Source: Patescibacteria group bacterium
Lineage (GTDB): Bacteria; Patescibacteriota; JABMPQ01; JAQVVF01
Assembly (NCBI GenBank): GCA_028699085.1
Contig: JAQVVF010000002.1
Span: forward strand, 68,557-132,556
Direction of reading: 5' to 3'
Length of the DNA: 64,000 nucleotides
Position numbers and translations under genes: made by a program. Under the pieces are notes generated by a model that saw nothing but the letters and a program-made list of their open reading frames with translations, was not told where the DNA came from and did not search any database. Of the stretch, positions 1,234 to 57,643 are shown in pieces. Positions within the stretch are counted from its first letter, which is position 1. Each line of letters begins with the position of its first letter.

Positions 1234-1434
1234 TTAAGCTTCTTTAATTAATAATCTTTCTTTCATGACTGTCAGAACTTTTGCAATATCTTTCTTTAAC
1301 AAAGAAATTTCTTTTACATTCTTATGTTGATTTGAAGCAATCTTAAATCTAACTTCACGCAGGCTTTCTCTTTTTTCAGCCAACATTTTCACTAACTCTT
1401 TATCCTTTTTTTCTCTGATTTCTTTAACTTTCAT
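1234..1434 (-). CDS. rpmC: 50S ribosomal protein L29
   Basis: 66 aa helical protein MKVKEIREKKDKEL...; between L16 and S17. Confidence 0.85.
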   Translation of the reverse strand: MKVKEIREKKDKELVKMLAEKRESLREVRFKIASNQHKNVKEISLLKKDIAKVLTVMKERLLIKEA

Positions 1435-1461
1435 ACTTTAAAACTTTATAACTTTAAAACT

Positions 1462-1869
1462 TTATAACTCCATTATAAACTTAGTCTTAATCGGTAATTT
1501 GTTAGCAGCCAAACGTAATGCCTCTCGTGCGACTTTCTCCGTTACTCCGTCCATTTCAAATAAAATCTTTCCTGGTGCAACAGAAACAACAAAATGATCA
1601 ACTGCACCCTTGCCTTTACCCATTGGAGTTTCAGCTCCTTTTGTAGTTACTGGCTTATCAGGAAATATTCTAATCCAAACTTTTCCACCACGTTGGATAA
1701 ATCTAGTCATAGCACGTCTAGAAGCTTCAATCTGTCTTGCTGTCAACCACTTACCTTCCATCGCTTTAATACCAAACATACCAAAACTTAATTGACTTCC
1801 ACGAACCTCAAGTCTTTTATTGCTTCCTTTTTGCCATTTTCTATGTTTTACTTTTTTCGGCATTAACAT
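1462..1869 (-). CDS. rplP: 50S ribosomal protein L16
   Basis: [15 protein letters not shown]... classic L16 N-terminus. Confidence 0.95.
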
Positions 1870-10721: not shown

Positions 10722-11474
10722 TTATCTTACATCAAAAGGCAGAGTTAAAGGCTCTGAAAATGGCACTGTCACTTCTTCCAATAAGTATCTTTCAGCAATT
10801 CCTACATTAGATTCACATGCTCCCCCATTGGGCGTAAATGAAGCAATGGAAACAGATTGCTTTTGATTTCCATTTTTAACAAAATACCTATCTCCAAACA
10901 CTCTAAGAACTCTAAAATCATCAAGTGGACCATCTGTAATAAAAGCACTTCCTGTGCAATTTGCATCACTGAAATAGACTGTCAAAGAAGAATTTAAGTC
11001 AGCATCAATGTATAAAAATTTCTTCAACGACGGAATATAAATATCAAAAGTCCTTACACCAACATTATTATAAAATCTTAAACTAGCATCTACCAGTATT
11101 CCTAAATCTTGATTATTTGCATCATAAACATGCAATTGCATTCCAGGAACACCCTGTTCACCACGATCTCCTTTTTCTCCCCTTTCGCCTTGGATGCCTT
11201 TAATACCTTGCTCACCTTTATCACCCTTTTCACCTTGAGGTCCCTGATCTCCTTTTACTCCTTGTGGTCCTGTTGGCCCAACGACTGATTTGCTTCCTGC
11301 TTTTAATTTTGCGACATCAACACTTAAAGTATTTACTTTTTTCTTCAAATTTTTTACTAATGTCCAAATTGAAACTTTATTAGCAGCCTGAACAATTGTT
11401 ACACCAGATAATAAAAATAATACAAGAGATACCGCAACAATCGCAACTAAAAACTTTTTGTTTGATTCTTGCAT
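10722..11474 (-). CDS. Membrane-anchored collagen-like triple-helix repeat protein
   Basis: N-terminal TM segment, then 15 uninterrupted G-X-Y triplets (GPTGPQGVKGDQG...GEQGVPG), ~140 aa Cys-containing C-terminal domain. Confidence 0.7.
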   Translation of the reverse strand: MQESNKKFLVAIVAVSLVLFLLSGVTIVQAANKVSIWTLVKNLKKKVNTLSVDVAKLKAGSKSVVGPTGPQGVKGDQGPQGEKGDKGEQGIKGIQGERGEKGDRGEQGVPGMQLHVYDANNQDLGILVDASLRFYNNVGVRTFDIYIPSLKKFLYIDADLNSSLTVYFSDANCTGSAFITDGPLDDFRVLRVFGDRYFVKNGNQKQSVSIASFTPNGGACESNVGIAERYLLEEVTVPFSEPLTLPFDVR

Positions 11475-12720: not shown

Positions 12721-12828
12721 AAATGATTAAATTCTCAATTTACAATTCTCAATTTTCAAATTATCTAATCCAGCTTTGGAAATTGATTATTGAAAATTTA
12801 TTGTAAATTGATCATTGAAAATTAGTAA

Positions 12829-23579: not shown

Positions 23580-23717
23580 GATTTAAAACTTTCTTTATAT
23601 TTTTATATAAAAAGACACTCTGTCCAGACTGTCTTTTTAGAAAAACTTGATTATTTGATTATTATGATATAATAACAAAAATTAAATAATATGTCAAGTT
23701 TGCAACTTTTTATCACT

Positions 23718-23788
23718 TCGGGGACCCGGGAATCGAACCCGGTCTACATCCACCCCATGGACGCGTACTACCGGTATACTAGTCCCCG
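23718..23788 (-). tRNA. tRNA-Pro (anticodon GGG)
   Basis: Manual fold: acceptor CGGGGAC/GTCCCCG, D arm GTAT/GTAC, anticodon stem CGTCC/GGATG with loop AUGGGGU, T arm CCGGG-TTCGATT-CCCGG; 71 nt, CCA not encoded. Confidence 0.8.
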
Positions 23789-23901
23789 ACTTAAACATTA
23801 TTATATGCTTTAACAACCGCAAAATCAACAAAAAAAAAGAAGCTATATATAACTTCTTACATAAAAAAACAAAAAATATCATAGATCAAAATTAGAATTT
23901 T

Positions 23902-28767: not shown

Positions 28768-29036
28768 TTTTTTCTCTCCTGCCTACATTTTTGTAGGCCC
28801 TGGTTGTAAAGAACAATCAAAAACCGGCTTTTAGAGCCGGTCTTTGCACAATATAATTTCTTTAAAAATTATCTTATATAATACAAAAATCGACTCATAA
28901 AAATGAAATGATAATGCCATGAATAAAATTTAAATTGTTGACTGATACTTAACATATATATACTTAATTGCTTATATTCGTACGATTAGTTGCAGTTGCA
29001 GTTGCATTCGCAATATTAATAAGATGAAAACAAAAA

Positions 29037-29063
29037 CTGGCCCAGATATTGAGCCAGCTTTTT
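29037..29063. terminator. Bidirectional terminator hairpin in 443-bp intergenic region
   Basis: A-run, CTGGC-ccagatattga-GCCAG, T5; A/T runs on both sides. Confidence 0.5.
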
Positions 29064-29210
29064 AAAAAAATTATTTAAAATTTATACAATAAAAAGTCGA
29101 CTCAATAATCTTGAATGCCAGTAATGTGTATAAAATTGTCGGCTAATATTTTTCATAATAATATATTATATAACACCTACATCTTTTGTCAATATAACTT
29201 ATCAACAGGC

Positions 29211-29693
29211 CTATTCTGTTCCTTTTTCTTTTTCAGAATATAAATAATCATAATCTATTTTTTTGTATTTAAATAATTCATCATTATTAAAAAATCTGAA
29301 TACTTCTTTCTCCGTATTTTCAGGACTATCGGAAGCATGAACAATGTTGCTTGAACCAGATATACATAAATCGCCTCTGATACTTCCAGCATCAGCTTCA
29401 TAGCCCTTTGTTGGTCCAACTAGCAAGCGAACAGCTGATATCGCATTATAACCTTCCAAAACTGCAGCAACACAAGGCGCACTTTTCATAAAACCCTTTA
29501 AGTCATTAAAAAAAGGCTTGTCCTTATGATGAGCATAATGTTCATCTAATAATACATCGCTTAATTGCATCATTTTCAATGCTGTAATTTTCAATCCTTT
29601 TTTTTCAAAACGAGAAATCACTTCACCTAAAAGATTTCTTTGCAAACCATCTGGTTTTATGATAACTAATGTTCTTTCAATTTTGTCTGGCAT
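29211..29693 (-). CDS. ndk: Nucleoside diphosphate kinase with ~25 aa C-terminal extension
   Basis: LVIIKPDG, NIVHASDS (catalytic His region), 160 aa. Confidence 0.92.
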   Translation of the reverse strand: MPDKIERTLVIIKPDGLQRNLLGEVISRFEKKGLKITALKMMQLSDVLLDEHYAHHKDKPFFNDLKGFMKSAPCVAAVLEGYNAISAVRLLVGPTKGYEADAGSIRGDLCISGSSNIVHASDSPENTEKEVFRFFNNDELFKYKKIDYDYLYSEKEKGTE

Positions 29694-29711
29694 AAAATTG
29701 TTTTATTTAAT

Positions 29712-31016
29712 TTAACCTTTAATTTTGTCCATTAATTTTCTTAACTTTTTCAAAATCCTGAACTGTCCATCTTCCATAAAAAAATCTTTCAAATTTATTT
29801 CTTTATTCAATCCTCTTTTTATTCTCTTTCTCCAAGAAGACTGCTCATGTGATTCTATTGTTTCAAGATACAGATTTAATAATTTCTGAGTTTGATTTTG
29901 GATCGAAAATAATTTTGCTAGTTCTAAAGACTTTGTCGACATTTTAGCACGTAAATCTGGATTTCGCAACAACTCTAAAACTTTTTCAGAATATAAATCT
30001 GAATCATCATTTGGAATTTCAAAACCATTCTCTAAATCCGCCACAACTGAAGTCAAACCTTCATCCTTCAACATTACAATTGGCAAACCAGAAGCTGCTG
30101 CTTCCAACAAAACCAAACTTTGAGTATCAGTCTTCGATGCAAAAACAAAAAATTCTGCATCTGCAAAACATTTTGGCACTTCATCTCGATTCGCAAATCC
30201 GCCAAAAATAACTCTGTCTTGCAATTTCATTTTTTCAAATTCATTTTTTAAATCATCTAAACTTGGTCCAGAACCGATTATCGCCATCACGCAATTTTCA
30301 TCTTCTTTAGCTACTTTTTCAAACATCTCCGCTAAAAACATCGGATTCTTGGGAAGAGCCACTCTGCCCAAATACATTATTATTTTCTTGTCAGCTGGAA
30401 TATTAAACTTTGATCTTAAATATTTTTTTTCAACATTACTAAATTTATCCAACTCAATTCCAGTCTGAATAACTGAAATATCATTTTTTACTCCATATTC
30501 TTGCAACATTTTTTTAACTTTTTCCGAAGGCGAAATTAAAGCATCGCATCTTTGGCTATAAAAAACTGAGATATCTTTTGCCAAGCTCATCACTGCTTTA
30601 TCCATCCTATACCAATTTTTAAATAATGAATGACCTGTATATTTTTCATAAAGCGTATGATAAGTATGGACAACTGGAATATTATAAAATAATGCTACAA
30701 TACTTGCATACATTCCCATATAAAATGGCGTATGAGAATGAACTATGTCAATTTTAAATTTATAAAAATCATGAAAAATCGGAGGTAGATTTGGAAGCGT
30801 CATTGTGAATTCCGAAAATACATCTTGCTTCAATGATTCAATACGATAAACTCTTGGACCATCTTTTGGAACATTTCCATTTTCATCTTTTAATAATGGC
30901 GCAAAAATAAAAACCTGATGACCTTGTTTTTCCAGTTCATCTTTGAATAAATCTATTGAGTTCGCAACACCAGAGACATAAGGATGATAGGTGTCTGTAA
31001 AAAATGCTATATTCAC
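29712..31016 (-). CDS. GT4-family (GT-B) glycosyltransferase, GTG start
   Basis: MNIAFFTDTYHPYVSGVA N-terminus, C-terminal EAAASGLPIV-like motif; extra ~60 aa C-terminal region. Confidence 0.82.
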   Translation of the reverse strand: MNIAFFTDTYHPYVSGVANSIDLFKDELEKQGHQVFIFAPLLKDENGNVPKDGPRVYRIESLKQDVFSEFTMTLPNLPPIFHDFYKFKIDIVHSHTPFYMGMYASIVALFYNIPVVHTYHTLYEKYTGHSLFKNWYRMDKAVMSLAKDISVFYSQRCDALISPSEKVKKMLQEYGVKNDISVIQTGIELDKFSNVEKKYLRSKFNIPADKKIIMYLGRVALPKNPMFLAEMFEKVAKEDENCVMAIIGSGPSLDDLKNEFEKMKLQDRVIFGGFANRDEVPKCFADAEFFVFASKTDTQSLVLLEAAASGLPIVMLKDEGLTSVVADLENGFEIPNDDSDLYSEKVLELLRNPDLRAKMSTKSLELAKLFSIQNQTQKLLNLYLETIESHEQSSWRKRIKRGLNKEINLKDFFMEDGQFRILKKLRKLMDKIKG

Positions 31017-31109
31017 GTTAAAAAAGTTAAAAGTTAAAAGTTAAAAGTTAAAAGTTAAAAGTTAAAAGTTAAAAGTTAAAATTAAAAAGTTAAAAGTTAA
31101 AAGTTACAA
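31017..31109. repeat. Tandem heptanucleotide repeat (GTTAAAA)n, ~12 units (8 perfect)
   Basis: Directly read; begins at the nucleotide adjacent to the GTG start of the GT4 gene. Confidence 0.95.
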
Positions 31110-31174
31110 ATCGAAAGTCGTCATCATTCCTTTTTATTTTTTACTTGCAGTTTTTTACTTTTTACTTTTGACTT

Positions 31175-31891
31175 CTATCTTATGTCGACAAAATCACTTG
31201 GCTGTTTTTTTAAAATAAAAACATTCCAATAATTTTTGATGTGAAACCATAAAAATTTAAAAAATCCCTTCTGAAAACGTCTTGGAGATGTATACACAAA
31301 AATCTTTGGATCAAAAACAACTTTACCATATTTTTTTAATTTCTGGCCTAGATATATATCTTCTGCTGATTTTAGATTCAAATCATATCCGCCAGCTTTT
31401 TCAAAAAAATCTTTTCGATATGCAAAATTCATTCCCGTCACATTATCTTTTCCAAATAATCTCGATATGTGCAAAAACAAAGTATAAATATATCTTGCTA
31501 GAAATCTTAAATAAAATGGACCACCGTTCATTCTTACACTGCCATAAAACAAGACCGCATTATTTTCTTCAAAATATTTGCTAATTTGACTAAGCCAGTT
31601 TTTTGGATAAACCGTGTCAGCATCGCAACTAACAATAATATCACCTTGTGCAATTTTAGCTCCAGATTGCCTAGCATAAGACACGCCTTTTCTGTTTTCT
31701 TTAACAATCTTTAAATTAGAAAAATTATGTTTTTTTGCTACATCCAAAACAACGCCTTCAGTATTATCAGTGCAAGCATTCAAGCTAATAATTAATTCAT
31801 AATCAACAAAATCTTGACTGACCAATGATTCAACGCAAGGTCTAATATATTTTTCTTCATTATATGCTGGAACAACAATCGAAATTTTCAT
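31175..31891 (-). CDS. GT2-family glycosyltransferase (polyprenol-phosphate sugar transferase-like)
   Basis: ISIVVPAYNEE, DAD motif (SCDADTVY), 238 aa. Confidence 0.82.
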   Translation of the reverse strand: MKISIVVPAYNEEKYIRPCVESLVSQDFVDYELIISLNACTDNTEGVVLDVAKKHNFSNLKIVKENRKGVSYARQSGAKIAQGDIIVSCDADTVYPKNWLSQISKYFEENNAVLFYGSVRMNGGPFYLRFLARYIYTLFLHISRLFGKDNVTGMNFAYRKDFFEKAGGYDLNLKSAEDIYLGQKLKKYGKVVFDPKIFVYTSPRRFQKGFFKFLWFHIKNYWNVFILKKQPSDFVDIR

Positions 31892-31903
31892 GATCGAAAT
31901 TAA

Positions 31904-32761
31904 TTATAATTTGTTGCAATTAATTTTAATTCCATCTCCAACACATTTTATATCTTCATCCAGATCAGTCCTAAAAACTTTAATGCCTGAATTATTCAAG
32001 TTATCCAAAGTAGTTTGATGCGGATGATGATAAGAATTTTTCAAACCTACCATAATTATACCATAATTCGATGCAACTTTTTCCAAAAAATCCACTGAAC
32101 TTGAATACTTGCTTCCGTGATGCCCAACTTTCAAAATATCACTCTTTAAATCTGCGTTATTATTCAAAATTTCTTTTTCAATTTCCATTCCTGCATCACC
32201 TGTCATCATAATCGAATTTTGTCCATAAATCAACCTTAAAACAATTGAAGAATTATTCAAATCATCACTTTCAACATTATTGATTGGCGCTAATATTTTT
32301 ATTGTTGTTTGACCCAACAAAACCTCATCTCCAGCTTTAACATTCTTTGAAACAATATTTTTTTCTTTAATTAAATTTAATAGTTCCAGATATCCAGCAT
32401 AATCATTTTTAGTTCCATAATATAACACCTCGCCAACATCATATCTTTTTAAAATATCAACTAAACCATCGACATGGTCGCTATGTCCATGACTTAGAAT
32501 TACTAATTCAATTTTTTTATCATAATATGGCATTATTTCTCCTAATTTTGACAGCACTTTACTACCCGGCCCACCATCAATCAAAATATCTTGAGAATCA
32601 GCAGTTCGAAAATAACTAGCATCACCTTGTCCTACATCAAAAAAATAAGCAGTTAATTTTTGATCATTACCTTTAAATACCATTGGCCACAAAACAATGT
32701 TTAACAATCCAAATACCACCATTACGCTATATGCAAATTTTTTATTTTTAATTTTAACCAT
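31904..32761 (-). CDS. ComEC C-terminal metallo-beta-lactamase domain protein (separate gene with its own TM anchor)
   Basis: YFFDVGQGDASYF, ILSHGHSDHVDG motifs; ATG overlaps upstream stop (TAATG). Confidence 0.8.
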   Translation of the reverse strand: MVKIKNKKFAYSVMVVFGLLNIVLWPMVFKGNDQKLTAYFFDVGQGDASYFRTADSQDILIDGGPGSKVLSKLGEIMPYYDKKIELVILSHGHSDHVDGLVDILKRYDVGEVLYYGTKNDYAGYLELLNLIKEKNIVSKNVKAGDEVLLGQTTIKILAPINNVESDDLNNSSIVLRLIYGQNSIMMTGDAGMEIEKEILNNNADLKSDILKVGHHGSKYSSSVDFLEKVASNYGIIMVGLKNSYHHPHQTTLDNLNNSGIKVFRTDLDEDIKCVGDGIKINCNKL

Positions 32762-34227
32762 TATTTTTTTCTTAATGCCCTCCAGATAATATAAATAATA
32801 ACATAATATATAATAACTAACCCAAACCAAATTTTTTTTACTTCAATTGCTGCCCAATTAAATTGCGAAAAAAATTCCACAATCTTAATCATATATGACA
32901 CAAACAACCAGGCAATCAATCCTAATAATTTTCCTAAAGGAAAAAATATTATTCCAGCTAATCCTCCCAAAAAACCAACTAGCATTGTAATCGGAATTAT
33001 CGGCAAGATCAACAAATTTGCTAAAGGTGAAATTAAAGATAATCTTTCAAAATTATTAAATATTATTGGTAAAACCAAAAATTGTGCAGCAAATGTTGTT
33101 GCTAATACCTCTCTCAACTTAAAGACATTCGGCATTTTTTTCAAATATCTCAAAATAATTGGCGTAAAATAAACAATTCCGATCGTTGCCAAAAATGATA
33201 ATTGGAATCCGACATCAAAAGACAAAAACAATGGATTAACTGTAACTATTGCAATTGCCGAAAACAATAACACATTGCGAATATTCGACATCCTGCCAAA
33301 ATTCAATGCCACAACAACTAATCCGCCCATAATTGATGCTCTAATCGCCGACGCTTGGATTCCAGTCAATAATACAAAAAATATTAAACCCAAAACAGCT
33401 AACCAAAACGCCTTTTTGCGATCAAAAACCATTATCCCAAGATATAACAGTATAGAAGAAATCACTGTCACGTGATAACCTGAAACAACAATTACATGAG
33501 ACACGCCAACTAAATTGAATTTATCCAATAATTCCTTCGGCAAACCGCTTTTATTTCCTAACAATAAACCATCAATCAACGATGCCTGAGGTTCTGGCAA
33601 AATTTTATTTATGCTGTCTCTAAAATAATATTTAATTTTCAAAACAAAATTAAATATAAAATTTCCTTTATTCTTATCAGCTAGAATAATCTCTGGATTA
33701 TATACTACAGAATAAATACCTGACTTTGCTAAATAATCACGATAATTAAATTCATTAAACTCTCCAGGATCTTTTAATTTAGCTTTTACTTCCAATAGAT
33801 CGCCATAATTAAAAACTGGATATCTTGGCACTGTAATCAAAATTCTGCCTTTTAAATTTTTATCAAGCTCTTTTGATCTTAAATTGCCAAGCACTAATTT
33901 TGTGTTTTCTATTCGTAAATCAGGTTCAACAATTACCGTTCCAACCAACACAATTTCCCTTTTTTCATTATAATATTGAATCCAATCACTATTTATTTTT
34001 GGCAAAGCTAATTCATATCGAAGCATACCAAGAAAGAAAACGATGATCCCAAATCCAATTACTAAACACACCTTAAATTTATGCCAAATAAAAATCAAAA
34101 TAAAAGCGCAATTTAAAAGCGCTAATTTTATTATTAAATCAATCAAAAAAAATTGAGATAAAAAAATCCCTCCTAAAAATGACACTCCAAGCCAAAAAAA
34201 TATTTTTGCTTTAGACAATTTGAACAC
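32761..34227 (-). CDS. ComEC/Rec2 N-terminal part (DUF4131 + competence membrane domain)
   Basis: Multi-TM protein with ComEC competence-domain-like segments; followed by MBL-domain gene. Confidence 0.75.
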   Translation of the reverse strand: MFKLSKAKIFFWLGVSFLGGIFLSQFFLIDLIIKLALLNCAFILIFIWHKFKVCLVIGFGIIVFFLGMLRYELALPKINSDWIQYYNEKREIVLVGTVIVEPDLRIENTKLVLGNLRSKELDKNLKGRILITVPRYPVFNYGDLLEVKAKLKDPGEFNEFNYRDYLAKSGIYSVVYNPEIILADKNKGNFIFNFVLKIKYYFRDSINKILPEPQASLIDGLLLGNKSGLPKELLDKFNLVGVSHVIVVSGYHVTVISSILLYLGIMVFDRKKAFWLAVLGLIFFVLLTGIQASAIRASIMGGLVVVALNFGRMSNIRNVLLFSAIAIVTVNPLFLSFDVGFQLSFLATIGIVYFTPIILRYLKKMPNVFKLREVLATTFAAQFLVLPIIFNNFERLSLISPLANLLILPIIPITMLVGFLGGLAGIIFFPLGKLLGLIAWLFVSYMIKIVEFFSQFNWAAIEVKKIWFGLVIIYYVIIYIIWRALRKK

Positions 34228-56965: not shown

Positions 56966-57019
56966 AATTTAAAATTTAAATATCAAAAATAAAAATTACA
57001 ATGCAAAATTTAAAATTTT

Positions 57020-57643
57020 TTATTTTACATTGTCATTTTCCATTTTGATTTTTGCATTTTCAATTTTCACATCTCCTTGTCTTAACATTTTAATTTTATT
57101 TTCAGTTACATCAACTACTGTTGAGATATGGCCTTCTGTTAATTTTCCGCCATCGATCACTAAATCAGGTTCATTGCTTTTTCCCTCAAACTGTTTCTTA
57201 ATGTCTTCAACAGAATAGCAAGTCTTCTCGCCTGCCAAATTTGCACTTGTTGAAGTTACTGGAAAATCTACCTTCTCCATTATTTTTTTTATTAAATCAT
57301 AACTTGATATTCTAATTCCTAATGTATTTTTTACAAAAGGAATATTTTTTTTATTTTTTAAAACCAAAGTTAAAGGTCCAGGCAAATATTTTTTTGCCAA
57401 TTCCAATGCATTGTTATTAATCTCAACATATTCTTTTGCCATTTCCAAATCTTTCATAAAAACAGATAATTCCTTACTAACATCGCGCTGCTTAATCTCA
57501 AAAACCTTTTTAACAGCATCTTTACTCAAAGCATTAGCCAGTATTCCATAAGCAGTTTCTGTCGGTGCAACAATAACTTTATTATCTTTTAAATATTTTA
57601 TAATCTCATCAATTTTTATTTCATCGATATCAACTATTTTCAT
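57020..57643 (-). CDS. tsaC: L-threonylcarbamoyladenylate synthase (YrdC/TsaC/Sua5 family)
   Basis: VIVAPTETAYGILANA, PGPLTLVL YrdC motifs. Confidence 0.82.
   Translation of the reverse strand: MKIVDIDEIKIDEIIKYLKDNKVIVAPTETAYGILANALSKDAVKKVFEIKQRDVSKELSVFMKDLEMAKEYVEINNNALELAKKYLPGPLTLVLKNKKNIPFVKNTLGIRISSYDLIKKIMEKVDFPVTSTSANLAGEKTCYSVEDIKKQFEGKSNEPDLVIDGGKLTEGHISTVVDVTENKIKMLRQGDVKIENAKIKMENDNVK

What the first reader, a model, noticed from the sequence alone, without database searches (positions are those of the whole stretch)
31017..31109. Perfect heptanucleotide microsatellite (GTTAAAA)n abutting the GTG start of a glycosyltransferase
About 12 tandem 7-bp units (8 perfect) begin at the base next to the GTG start codon of the GT4 glycosyltransferase (29712-31016) and fill most of the spacer to the upstream GT2 gene. 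A further AGTAAAA-like degenerate repeat run follows at 31130-31170. The repeat therefore is the 5-prime UTR and promoter of a surface-glycosylation gene. Slipped-strand changes in unit number would alter spacing and expression. This is the classic architecture of a phase-variable contingency locus.
Basis: seen in the sequence. Interest (0 to 1): 0.6.

Follow-up and report, generated by a model that had tools for sequence, protein, structure and literature searches.

The report
Variable heptamer repeat in intercistronic hairpin
A real 7-base repeat in front of a glycosyltransferase gene of an uncultured ultra-small (Patescibacteria) bacterium differs in copy number between otherwise identical strains. 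It is one arm of a conserved hairpin between two same-strand genes, not a recognisable promoter, so it more likely tunes the gene than switches it on and off.

Summary
There are twelve 7-nt units at 31022-31105 (gene strand: AACTTTT x3, TAATTTT, AACTTTT x8), then TTAAC and the GTG start of the GT4 gene. This is far beyond chance. Copy number varies: a contig from another sample is 100% identical over 1,136 bp except that it has 4 units, and a sister lineage (96.5% GT4) has 5.

The promoter interpretation is not supported:
- The spacer has no sigma-70-like match on the gene strand.
- GT2 and GT4 overlap by ATGA in four distant relatives.
- This genome uses no Shine-Dalgarno sites.

The repeat is the 3' arm of a stem-loop whose 5' arm is the "degenerate AGTAAAA run". 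Orthologous GT2-GT4 spacers in at least eight lineages carry unrelated sequences, yet fold into hairpins that run from the stop codon to the start codon (z -3 to -8). Their arms are often heptamer arrays. Two more such hairpins lie in the window (rpsL-rpsG, tsaC-glyA).

Best model (inferred): an intercistronic hairpin masks the GT4 start, and units beyond about 9 leave an unpaired U-rich leader, giving graded control of translation. The closest analogue is the H. influenzae hmw heptamer/hairpin 5'-UTR. A neutral VNTR remains a serious rival.

The parts
31022..31105 (-). Heptanucleotide array of 12 units. Read on the gene strand: (AACTTTT)3 at 31105-31085, variant TAATTTT at 31084-31078, (AACTTTT)8 at 31077-31022. 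It is the 3' arm of the hairpin plus surplus units.
   Evidence: TRF score 156. Unit coordinates and shuffle control. Alleles with 4 and 5 units in other samples.
31017..31021 (-). Linker TTAAC between the last unit and the GTG. Together with the last unit's TTTT it forms a run of six T/U (31020-31025).
   Evidence: Sequence reading. The same linker occurs in L003, L175 and L008.
29712..31016 (-). GT4-family glycosyltransferase gene, 434 aa, GTG start at 31016-31014. It is a distant relative of alpha-monoglucosyl-diacylglycerol synthase.
   Evidence: Pfam Glycos_transf_1 and Glyco_transf_4. NCBIfam NF049988, 168 bits against a cut-off of 400. N-terminus MNI(A/G)FFTD is invariant in homologues.
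31129..31174 (-). 5' arm of the hairpin: a degenerate A-rich heptamer run, AAGTC AAAAGT AAAAAGT AAAAAACTGC AAGT AAAAAAT AAAAAGG. It begins at the base after the GT2 stop codon.
   Evidence: TRF 31130-31174, period 7. Inverted repeat I2. Pairs with the array in the predicted folds.
31106..31128 (-). Central, non-repetitive loop region, AATGATGACGACTTTCGATTTGT. It holds a 7-codon mini-ORF (31127-31104, ATG ATG ACG ACT TTC GAT TTG TAA) that ends in the first repeat unit.
   Evidence: Sequence reading. Homologous loop in L175, L003 and L004.
31175..31891 (-). Upstream GT2-family glycosyltransferase gene, 238 aa, stop TAG at 31177-31175.
   Evidence: Pfam Glycos_transf_2. Conserved comEC-MBL-GT2-GT4-ndk gene order in relatives.
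12721..12828 (-). Second hairpin of the same style, with period-7/14 arms, in the rpsL-to-rpsG spacer. It ends 9 nt before the rpsG ATG.
   Evidence: Period peaks at 14 and 7. Fold -22.1 kcal/mol, z = -3.0. Pfam S12 and S7.
56966..57075 (-). Third hairpin of the same style, with period-7 arms, between tsaC/Sua5 and glyA. Its 5' arm lies in the last codons of tsaC and its 3' arm abuts the glyA ATG.
   Evidence: Longest inverted repeat in the window, I1. TRF period 7 on both arms. Fold z = -3.2. Pfam.

Best explanation
The feature is a strain-polymorphic heptanucleotide VNTR, (AACUUUU)n on the mRNA strand. It forms the start-codon-proximal arm of a long A/U-rich stem-loop that fills the spacer between two same-strand, probably co-transcribed glycosyltransferase genes (GT2 then GT4) of a Patescibacteria MAG.

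The conserved element is the stem-loop, not the repeat sequence. In relatives the spacer sequence is replaced again and again, but it still folds into a hairpin whose base brings the GT2 stop codon next to the GT4 start codon.

This organism has no Shine-Dalgarno sites, so initiation should depend on an unstructured leader. The proposed mechanism has three steps:
- The hairpin masks the GT4 initiation region.
- A ribosome finishing GT2, or an endonuclease such as RNase III, opens it.
- Repeat units beyond what the 5' arm can pair (about 8-9) leave a free U-rich leader in front of the GUG.

Slippage in the array would then change GT4 translation or coupling in a graded way, like a rheostat. It would not change promoter spacing in an ON/OFF way.

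Shown: the repeat, its copy-number polymorphism, the complementary arms, the conservation of the hairpin, the absence of SD sites and of a promoter match. Inferred: co-transcription, that the structure forms in RNA, and any effect on expression.
For: 1. Polymorphism.
- L003 (SRR31593246) is identical to the window over 1,136 bp except for a 56-bp (8-unit) deletion.
- Its 4-unit junction is shorter than 31 nt. It therefore cannot be a collapse artefact of a k=31 assembly (k value from my own knowledge of Logan).
- The L175/L179-L182 lineage has 2+variant+2 units, and L008 has 1+variant+2.

2. Hairpin.
- The arms are reverse complements and pair in the predicted folds.

3. Hairpin conservation with sequence turnover in the orthologous GT2-GT4 spacers.
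- L177 -27.6 kcal/mol, z = -8.0; L015 z = -6.6; L176 z = -5.5; L014 z = -4.6.
- L022 z = -3.3; L024 z = -3.1; L021 z = -3.5; L004 z = -2.7.
- Arm motifs are unrelated: AAAACAG/CTGTTTT, AATTTTG/CAAAATT, TGTAAC/GTTACA, TGCCAAT/ATTGGCA.
- Only 0-5 unpaired nt lie next to the start codon in seven of the eight (12 in L021), and 0-5 next to the stop codon in seven (10 in L022).

4. Operon context.
- ATGA stop/start overlap of GT2 and GT4 in L020, L023, L100 and L103.
- No terminator-like or promoter-like site on the gene strand in the spacer.

5. No Shine-Dalgarno motif upstream of nearly all 60 ORFs in the window.

6. Thermodynamic model. The mean probability that the 25 nt before the GUG are unpaired is 0.33-0.47 for 2-8 units. 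It is 0.80-0.86 for 10 or more. The window allele gives 0.84 and the 4-unit allele 0.33.

7. Precedent. The H. influenzae hmw heptamer SSR is transcribed, forms an arm of a 5'-UTR hairpin cleaved by RNase III, and expression scales with repeat number (PMC12721329).
Against: - In the window allele the fold is no more stable than shuffled sequence (z = +0.3, +0.16).
- Sense and antisense strands fold equally well and G-U pairs are rare. Nothing therefore shows that the structure acts in RNA rather than DNA, or that selection rather than mutation keeps the arms complementary.
- No transcript, read-level or expression data exist.
- The hairpin is dispensable in some relatives. L010/L011 have a 23-nt spacer with no fold, and four lineages have an ATGA overlap.
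- In L008 a 192-aa gene sits between the two arms.
- The 5-unit allele is identical in at least 4 samples, so the locus is not variable everywhere.
- RNase III was not found in the 64-kb window, which is uninformative.
Confidence: 0.45

Rival explanations
1. Neutral VNTR in a quasi-palindrome. The array is a slippage-prone A/T-rich microsatellite with no regulatory consequence. The arms stay complementary through a mutational process (template switching, or 'quasipalindrome correction', during replication) rather than through selection.
For: - Arms are Watson-Crick complementary with very few G-U pairs, and neither strand is favoured.
- Spacer sequence turns over very fast between relatives whose GT4 proteins are 89-96% identical.
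- The hairpin is absent in some relatives.
- The window allele's fold is not better than shuffles.
- Intergenic spacers in this genome show only a weak general period-7/14/21 signal (z 2.3-3.9).
Against: - The hairpin persists at the same junction from 38% to 96% GT4 identity, with unrelated sequences and z down to -8.
- It is consistently flush with the stop and start codons.
- From general knowledge: long palindromes are normally unstable, and intergenic DNA is scarce in small Patescibacteria genomes, so persistence suggests selection.
Confidence: 0.25
2. The repeat is, or lies within, the GT4 promoter. Slipped-strand changes alter promoter element spacing and give ON/OFF phase variation of a surface-glycosylation gene, as in a classic contingency locus.
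For: - Copy number is polymorphic between near-identical strains.
- The gene is a glycosyltransferase.
- The SRR22315503 contig L002 ends exactly where the 12-unit and 4-unit alleles diverge. This is compatible with mixed alleles in one sample, but only suggestive.
Against: - No sigma-70-like hexamer pair on the gene strand in the spacer. The only matches in the array are on the opposite strand and at the chance rate (22 found against 21.5 expected).
- The genome's real promoters look like TTGACAAAA-N-TATAAT.
- GT2/GT4 ATGA overlap in relatives.
- The array is downstream of any possible -10 element and abuts the start codon.
- The same hairpin style precedes rpsG and glyA.
- The GT4 family match points to a membrane glycolipid synthase.
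Confidence: 0.1
3. An hmw-type mechanism in the strict sense. The transcribed hairpin is an RNase III (or other endonuclease) processing site. Cleavage separates the GT2 and GT4 mRNAs and sets GT4 mRNA stability or translation, and unit number changes how efficiently it is processed.
For: - Long, nearly perfect stems of 25-43 bp in orthologues.
- Direct precedent with a heptamer SSR arm (PMC12721329).
Against: - No RNase III gene was seen in this window; the rest of the genome was not examined.
- No RNA data.
- The A/U-rich stems are weak in the window's own lineage (-15 to -18 kcal/mol).
Confidence: 0.1
4. Leaky intrinsic terminator or attenuator. The hairpin followed by U6 partly terminates transcription after GT2, setting a GT2:GT4 ratio. 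Unit number shifts the distance between the hairpin and the U-tract.
For: A U5-U6 run follows the 3' arm in the window, L003, L175, L004, L177 and L015.
Against: - The terminator scan finds nothing here.
- The genome's evident terminators have G+C-rich stems.
- L014, L022 and L021 have no U-run after the hairpin.
- The stem base next to the U-tract is A/U-rich.
Confidence: 0.07
5. A DNA-level element. The inverted heptamer arrays are binding sites for a dimeric or multimeric DNA-binding protein, or they extrude a cruciform that affects replication or transcription.
For: Perfect DNA dyad symmetry and no strand preference. Repeated heptamers resemble iterated binding sites.
Against: Arm sequences are unrelated between close relatives, which argues against a sequence-specific binding protein. 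No candidate regulator is linked to the locus.
Confidence: 0.03

Closest known systems
Haemophilus influenzae hmw1A/hmw2A 5'-UTR (ATCTTTC)n repeat with RNase III-targeted hairpin (PMC12721329; also PMC10127715, PMC2424069)
   Same: - A 7-nt unit in a non-coding array upstream of the start codon.
- The array forms one arm of a long imperfect hairpin with a complementary partner arm.
- Copy number varies between strains.
- The effect is graded, not ON/OFF (here only predicted).
   Different: - Here the array is the 3' arm and abuts the start codon. In hmw it is the 5' arm, at -175 to -116.
- Here the partner arm is itself a degenerate heptamer array. In hmw it is a G-rich stretch.
- Here the context is intercistronic, with no promoter found. 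In hmw there is a dedicated promoter.
- The predicted direction of the effect is opposite: more units give a more open leader.
- The host lacks SD sites, and the gene is a cytoplasmic or membrane glycosyltransferase, not an adhesin.
- Transcription, RNase III cleavage and the expression effect are all untested here.
Classical intergenic SSR contingency loci (promoter-spacing type, for example TA repeats between -35 and -10 of H. influenzae hif, or TAAA repeats upstream of Neisseria nadA; from my own knowledge and the reviews PMC11475388 and PMC2651432 listed)
   Same: A hypermutable SSR 5' of a gene for a cell-envelope-related enzyme, with strain-level unit-number variation.
   Different: No promoter elements flank or include the array. 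The array lies between a stop codon and a start codon in an apparent operon. The organism is an environmental Patescibacteria, not a host-adapted pathogen.
MIRU-VNTR of mycobacteria (tandem repeats in intercistronic regions of operons; from my own knowledge)
   Same: Variable-number tandem repeats that sit exactly between the stop and start codons of co-transcribed genes. Copy number differs between strains, and function is mostly unproven.
   Different: MIRU units are 40-100 bp, carry small ORFs that overlap the neighbouring stop and start codons, and are dispersed in many copies. Here the unit is 7 bp, has a stop codon in every frame, is part of a hairpin, and occurs only once in the window.
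Translational coupling by unmasking of a structured initiation region (for example MS2 coat-replicase, or E. coli infC-rpmI-rplT; from my own knowledge)
   Same: A stem-loop sequesters the downstream start and would be melted by the ribosome terminating on the upstream gene. The hairpin base brings stop and start together.
   Different: The known cases do not use tandem-repeat arms and are not copy-number variable. Coupling here is only an inference.
Hypervariable 9-mer coding repeat in a Gracilibacteria (CPR) genome (PMC6851277)
   Same: SSR hypervariation within a CPR population, which also broke the assembly at the repeat.
   Different: That repeat is coding (PTD repeats) and inside a gene. 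This one is non-coding and structural.

Membership tests
SSR-mediated phase-variable (contingency) locus | Tandem simple-sequence repeat long and perfect enough to be hypermutable | tested here: met
   12 units, 8 of them perfect and contiguous. A 60-nt perfect period-7 tract against a maximum of 21 in shuffles.
SSR-mediated phase-variable (contingency) locus | Unit number differs between closely related strains or populations | tested here: met
   12 versus 4 units with 100% identical flanks. 5 units in the lineage with 96.5% GT4 identity, but identical there in at least 4 samples.
SSR-mediated phase-variable (contingency) locus | Repeat lies in an ORF or between/next to promoter elements, so that unit changes switch expression | tested here: not met
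   Non-coding (TAA in every frame). No sigma-70-like promoter on the gene strand in the spacer. ATGA-coupled GT2/GT4 in relatives.
SSR-mediated phase-variable (contingency) locus | High-frequency reversible switching within a clonal population | not testable with these tools
   No reads are available. The only hint is that contig L002 stops where the alleles diverge.
SSR-mediated phase-variable (contingency) locus | Controlled gene encodes a surface or interaction determinant | tested here: inconclusive
   GT4 enzyme. Best match is alpha-monoglucosyl-DAG synthase, 168 bits, below the cut-off of 400.
hmw-type transcribed heptamer SSR / 5'-UTR hairpin | Heptanucleotide array upstream of the start codon | tested here: met
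hmw-type transcribed heptamer SSR / 5'-UTR hairpin | Array pairs with a complementary region to form a long hairpin | tested here: met
   Inverted repeat I2 and predicted stems. Stability is not above shuffles in the window, but is strongly so in orthologues.
hmw-type transcribed heptamer SSR / 5'-UTR hairpin | Array is transcribed as part of the mRNA leader | not testable with these tools
   Inferred only, from the operon context.
hmw-type transcribed heptamer SSR / 5'-UTR hairpin | RNase III cleaves the hairpin, and expression scales with unit number | not testable with these tools
   No RNA or protein data. No rnc signature in this 64-kb window.
Intrinsic (Rho-independent) terminator | G+C-rich stem directly followed by a U-tract | tested here: not met
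   The scan finds no terminator-like site in the spacer. The stem has about one G-C pair per 7 bp, although a U6 run follows.
MIRU-type intercistronic VNTR | 40-100-bp units with small ORFs overlapping the flanking stop and start codons, in many dispersed copies | tested here: not met
   7-bp unit with a stop in all frames. The motif is found only at this locus in the window.
Known RNA families (Rfam 15) | Match to a curated covariance model | tested here: not met
   No hit at gathering score. Only chance-level hits with E above 3.

The most novel reading that the evidence does not exclude
Patescibacteria of this clade carry a so far undescribed class of 'stop-to-start' intercistronic hairpins. 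Their arms are built from tandem heptamers, and three are seen in this window alone: GT2-GT4, rpsL-rpsG and tsaC-glyA. In an organism without Shine-Dalgarno sites they would gate translation of the downstream cistron. Because the arms are microsatellites, they would also act as fast-evolving tuning knobs for operon stoichiometry. The GT4 array would be a member caught in an expanded, currently variable state.
Probability: 0.2. Interest if true: 0.75.

Novelty: new variant of a known kind. Interest (0 to 1): 0.55.

Why it matters
SSR-driven expression variation is known almost only from host-adapted pathogens. I found no report of it for intergenic regions of the Candidate Phyla Radiation. These are ultra-small, largely uncultured episymbionts with few conventional regulators.

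If unit number tunes a glycolipid or glycan transferase, this would be a simple heritable way for such cells to vary their envelope. That in turn could affect attachment to hosts or exposure to phages.

The comparative result matters more broadly. A hairpin kept at one gene junction while its sequence is replaced, with arms made of heptamer arrays, gives a concrete and testable model. It addresses how organisms without SD sites control translation of downstream cistrons, and how the hmw-type link between an SSR and an RNA hairpin may arise.

It also has a practical side. The repeat breaks k=31 assemblies at this locus and could serve as a strain marker.

Tried and rejected
- Coding repeat. Rejected: TAA in every frame, and GT4 homologues all start at the same Met-Asn-Ile.
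- Known RNA family. None found in Rfam at gathering score, and only chance-level hits at E up to 10.
- Promoter in the spacer. No gene-strand match. I hand-checked TTGTAA-N17-TTTAAT, which the variant unit creates. It lacks the conserved A at position 2 of the -10 element and is absent from the 4-unit allele.
- Thermodynamic significance of the window's own hairpin. Not significant (z +0.3 and +0.16). The case for the hairpin rests on complementary arms and on the orthologues.
- Strand asymmetry or G-U pairs, to tell RNA from DNA. No signal.
- Mobile or dispersed repeat element. The unit occurs in tandem only here in the window.
- Exact-match scan of JGI metagenomes with the left flank. Zero hits.
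- Assembly collapse as the source of the 4-unit allele. Rejected: the contig needs 31-mers that join both unique flanks across exactly 4 units (28 nt), and it carries a 31-mer absent from the window allele (k=31 from my own knowledge of Logan).
- RNase III signature in the window. None; uninformative for the genome.
- Literature on SSRs or phase variation in CPR intergenic regions. Nothing relevant.
- The mini-ORF in the loop as a conserved leader peptide. It is shared only among close relatives, so it is left as an observation.

Full report
**Observation**

All genes in this part of the window lie on the minus strand. They run comEC (32761-34227), a metallo-beta-lactamase-fold ORF (31904-32830), GT2 (31175-31891), GT4 (29712-31016) and ndk (29211-29693).

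The 158-nt GT2-GT4 spacer, read on the gene strand, has four parts:
- an A-rich degenerate heptamer run, AAGTC AAAAGT AAAAAGT AAAAAACTGC AAGT AAAAAAT AAAAAGG (31174-31129);
- a 23-nt unique centre (31128-31106);
- the array (AACTTTT)3 TAATTTT (AACTTTT)8 (31105-31022);
- the linker TTAAC, then the GTG start.

Tandem Repeats Finder gives period 7, 12.1 copies, 94% matches and score 156. This is by far the best of 109 rows in the window. The 60-nt perfect period-7 tract compares with a maximum of 21 nt in 100 dinucleotide shuffles.

The repeat has TAA in every frame on the gene strand. The GT4 N-terminus MNI(A/G)FFTD is invariant in 13 homologues, and close relatives carry ATG or GTG at the same codon. 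The start assignment and the non-coding nature are therefore sound.

**Source organism**

The GT4 protein is identical to MDD3887456.1, from a 'Patescibacteria group bacterium' MAG with a 200.5-kb contig. The nearest species-representative genome is an 'uncultured Candidatus Saccharibacteria' MAG with 96% GT4 identity. G+C content is about 31%.

Upstream regions of about 60 ORFs show essentially no Shine-Dalgarno motif. Leaders are simply A/T-rich. The missing SD in front of GT4 is therefore normal for this genome.

**Is the repeat hypervariable?**

*Same strain lineage.* Exact-protein look-ups found Logan contigs from two samples.
- In SRR22315503 the contigs are 100% identical to the window, but they break inside the repeat from both sides (L001, L002).
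- In SRR31593246 a 1,136-bp contig (L003) spans the spacer. It is 100% identical on both flanks but has only four perfect units, a spacer of 102 nt against 158, which is exactly eight units fewer.

Logan uses k=31 (my own knowledge). Four units are 28 nt, so the contig needs 31-mers that touch both unique flanks. It also contains a 31-mer (left flank plus four perfect units) that does not exist in the window allele. It is therefore a real second allele, not a collapsed repeat.

*Related lineages.*
- A sister lineage (GT4 96.5% identical; JGI samples 3300026161/63/77/78) has 2 + variant + 2 units. This allele is identical in at least four samples.
- An 84% relative has 1 + variant + 2 units.

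Unit number has therefore changed on both sides of the old variant unit. The only lineage with a long perfect tract shows a large length difference between otherwise identical sequences, which is what an SSR is expected to do.

*Within-sample variation.* This could not be tested. The only hint is that contig L002 stops exactly where the 12-unit and 4-unit alleles diverge.

**Is it a promoter?**

The evidence says no.
- The consensus scan finds no sigma-70-like pair on the gene strand in the spacer. The total count in 29000-33000 equals the shuffle expectation (22 against 21.5).
- Other spacers of the window show obvious TTGACAAAA-N-TATAAT promoters and G+C-rich terminators.
- The gene order comEC-MBL-GT2-GT4-ndk is conserved.
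- In four more distant relatives (L020, L023, L100, L103) the GT2 stop overlaps the GT4 start as ATGA. This is the signature of a co-transcribed, translationally coupled pair.

The spacer is therefore best read as an insertion into an operon junction.

**What the spacer is**

The two repeat runs are reverse complements. They form inverted repeat I2 with 52-nt arms, 75% complementary, the second longest in the window. They pair in every predicted fold.

In the window the fold is no better than shuffles (z +0.3 and +0.16), because the 3' arm has outgrown the 5' arm. The orthologous spacers decide the matter. Their sequences are unrelated, yet each folds into one long hairpin.

| Locus | GT4 identity | Arm motifs | Fold |
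|---|---|---|---|
| L177, L178, L095 | 89% | AAAATAG AAAACAG GAAACAG / CTGTTTT CTGTTTC CTAATTT | -27.6 kcal/mol, z = -8.0 |
| L176 | 94% (first 127 aa only) | same unit type, different unit numbers | z = -5.5 |
| L015 | 96% | TGCCAAT..ACGAAT / ATTGGCA..ATTAGCA | -31.7 kcal/mol, z = -6.6 |
| L014 | 69% | AATTTTG x4 / CAAAATT x5 | z = -4.6 |
| L022 | 40% | TGTAACG TATAACT / AGTTACA x4 | z = -3.3 |
| L024 | 38% | AAAAAGT x5 / ACTTTT-type | z = -3.1 |
| L004-L007 | 95% | A-rich arm / T-rich arm | z = -2.7 |
| L021 | 41% | — | z = -3.5 |

Other variants at the same junction:
- L019 carries about three copies of a 24-nt unit that is single in L021.
- L009 (83%) shows a different array, (AGAAATT) at least 4 times, abutting the ATG at a broken contig end.

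In these hairpins the first paired base lies 0-5 nt after the GT2 stop (10 in L022). The last paired base lies 0-5 nt before the GT4 start (12 in L021). The stem therefore brings stop and start together. The conserved feature is the hairpin, and its arms are repeatedly built from roughly 7-nt units.

**The same style elsewhere in the window**
- The longest inverted repeat (I1, 56966-57065) and the 12721-12828 spacer are also period-7 or period-14 hairpins that end at the next start codon (z = -3.2 and -3.0).
- They sit between tsaC/Sua5 and glyA, and between rpsL and rpsG.
- Across 31 other spacers there is a weak excess of self-similarity at periods 7, 14 and 21 (z 2.6, 2.3 and 3.9).

The GT4 array is therefore the extreme, young member of a local style that is not specific to envelope genes.

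**Mechanism (inferred)**

Initiation here cannot rely on an SD site, so accessibility of the leader should matter. In a partition-function model of the spacer plus flanks, I computed the mean probability that the 25 nt before the GUG are unpaired:
- 0.33-0.47 for 2-8 units;
- 0.59 for 9 units;
- 0.80-0.86 for 10 or more units;
- 0.33 for the 4-unit allele and 0.84 for the window allele.

I therefore propose three steps. The hairpin masks the GT4 start. A ribosome terminating on GT2, or a double-strand-specific nuclease, opens it. Surplus units uncouple GT4 from this control in a graded way.

This is close to the mechanism shown for the H. influenzae hmw adhesin genes. There a transcribed (AUCUUUC)n array forms one arm of a 5'-UTR hairpin, RNase III cleaves it, and expression depends on unit number (PMC12721329).

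**Limits**
- Sense and antisense folds are equally good and G-U pairs are rare. RNA and DNA, or selection and quasipalindrome-correcting mutation, cannot be told apart.
- Some relatives lack the hairpin.
- In L008 a 192-aa gene lies between the arms.
- There are no expression or read-level data.
- A neutral VNTR therefore remains a serious rival. A leaky terminator (a U6 run follows the stem) and a promoter-spacing switch are less likely.

**Gene function**

GT4 matches Glycos_transf_1 and Glyco_transf_4. Its best full-length NCBIfam match is alpha-monoglucosyl-diacylglycerol synthase, at 168 bits against a cut-off of 400. The nearest solved structures are MshA-like enzymes. 'Surface glycosylation' is thus possible but unproven, and a membrane glycolipid role is at least as likely.

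**Novelty**

The kind of system is known: an intergenic SSR whose length affects expression, and specifically a heptamer SSR as a hairpin arm. The following points are variants of it:
- the intercistronic stop-to-start position;
- both arms built from heptamer arrays;
- conservation of the structure through complete sequence turnover;
- the SD-less host;
- the phylum.

I found no report of intergenic SSR variation in CPR bacteria. The nearest is a coding 9-mer repeat in a Gracilibacterium (PMC6851277).

**Verdict**

Interest is moderate.

Noticed in passing
window 12721-12828 (- strand): The rpsL-to-rpsG spacer is a 108-nt hairpin with period-7/14 arms (TTTTCAA TGATCAA TTTACAA ... / TTGAAAA TTGAGAA TTGTAAA TTGAGAA), z = -3.0. 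It could be the S7 autoregulatory site, or another member of the same hairpin class.
   Followed up: partly
window 56966-57075 (- strand): This is the longest inverted repeat in the window. Its period-7 arms form a hairpin (z = -3.2) that abuts the glyA (SHMT) ATG. The 5' arm is inside the last ~18 codons of tsaC/Sua5, so the C-terminal tail of that protein is encoded by repeat sequence.
   Followed up: partly
window, all ORF starts: Almost none of the ~60 ORFs has a Shine-Dalgarno-like motif upstream; leaders are A/T-rich. This genome appears to initiate translation without SD pairing.
   Followed up: partly
window 31104-31127 (- strand); L004 2944-3003: The hairpin loop holds a mini-ORF, ATG ATG ACG ACT TTC GAT TTG TAA. 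In the 95% relative (L004-L007), which lacks TAA-bearing units, the homologous ATG opens an 18-codon ORF that runs through the T-rich arm. It ends in TGA overlapping the GT4 ATG (ATATGA), which is possible translational coupling through a leader peptide.
   Followed up: no
L008 1785-2363: In the 84% relative a 192-aa ORF lies between the two hairpin arms. It looks like a SAM-methyltransferase by eye but has no Pfam/NCBIfam hit. The A-rich arm serves as its leader and the (AACTTTT) arm as the GT4 leader. It is either an insertion into the loop or a loss in the other lineages.
   Followed up: no
L009 1-35: In the 83% relative a different heptamer array (AGAAATT AGAAATT GAAAATT AGAAATT) abuts the GT4 ATG, and the k=31 contig breaks in it. 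This looks like an independent, or inverted, array at the same position.
   Followed up: no
L019 2387-2500 versus L021 2456-2500: Two ~40% relatives differ in the copy number of a 24-nt unit (GATGGTTCGACAAGCTCACCATA, about 3 copies versus 1) in the same GT2-GT4 spacer.
   Followed up: no
L001 start and L002 end (= window ~31051 and ~31085): Both SRR22315503 contigs end inside the repeat. L002 stops exactly after the third unit, where the 12-unit and 4-unit alleles diverge. This would fit mixed alleles in that sample but is not proof.
   Followed up: partly
window 28768-29210 (- strand): This 443-nt spacer after ndk has a perfect 12/12 sigma-70 promoter (29192-29165) and the only terminator-like site of the region (29062-29032). 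Together they bracket a ~100-130-nt unit with a 24-aa ORF (29082-29156). An (AGTTGC)3 repeat lies at 28988-29006. It may be a small RNA or a small protein; Rfam has no match.
   Followed up: no
window 1426-1469: A period-8 array (gene strand AGTTTTAA AGTTATAA AGTTTTAA AGT) runs directly into an ATG just downstream of ORF 1462-1869, in the ribosomal-protein cluster. It is another repeat-built leader.
   Followed up: no
window 31904-34227: ComEC appears split. The Competence/DUF4131 membrane part (32761-34227) and the metallo-beta-lactamase part (31904-32830, called as 285 aa in relatives) are separate ORFs. The same split is seen in all relatives examined.
   Followed up: no
window 10722-11474: This 250-aa ORF has a collagen triple-helix repeat match (PF01391), which is unusual in a small Patescibacteria genome.
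   Followed up: no
window 23717-23789: ARAGORN calls a tRNA-Pro(GGG) here, but Rfam's tRNA model did not report it at gathering score.
   Followed up: no
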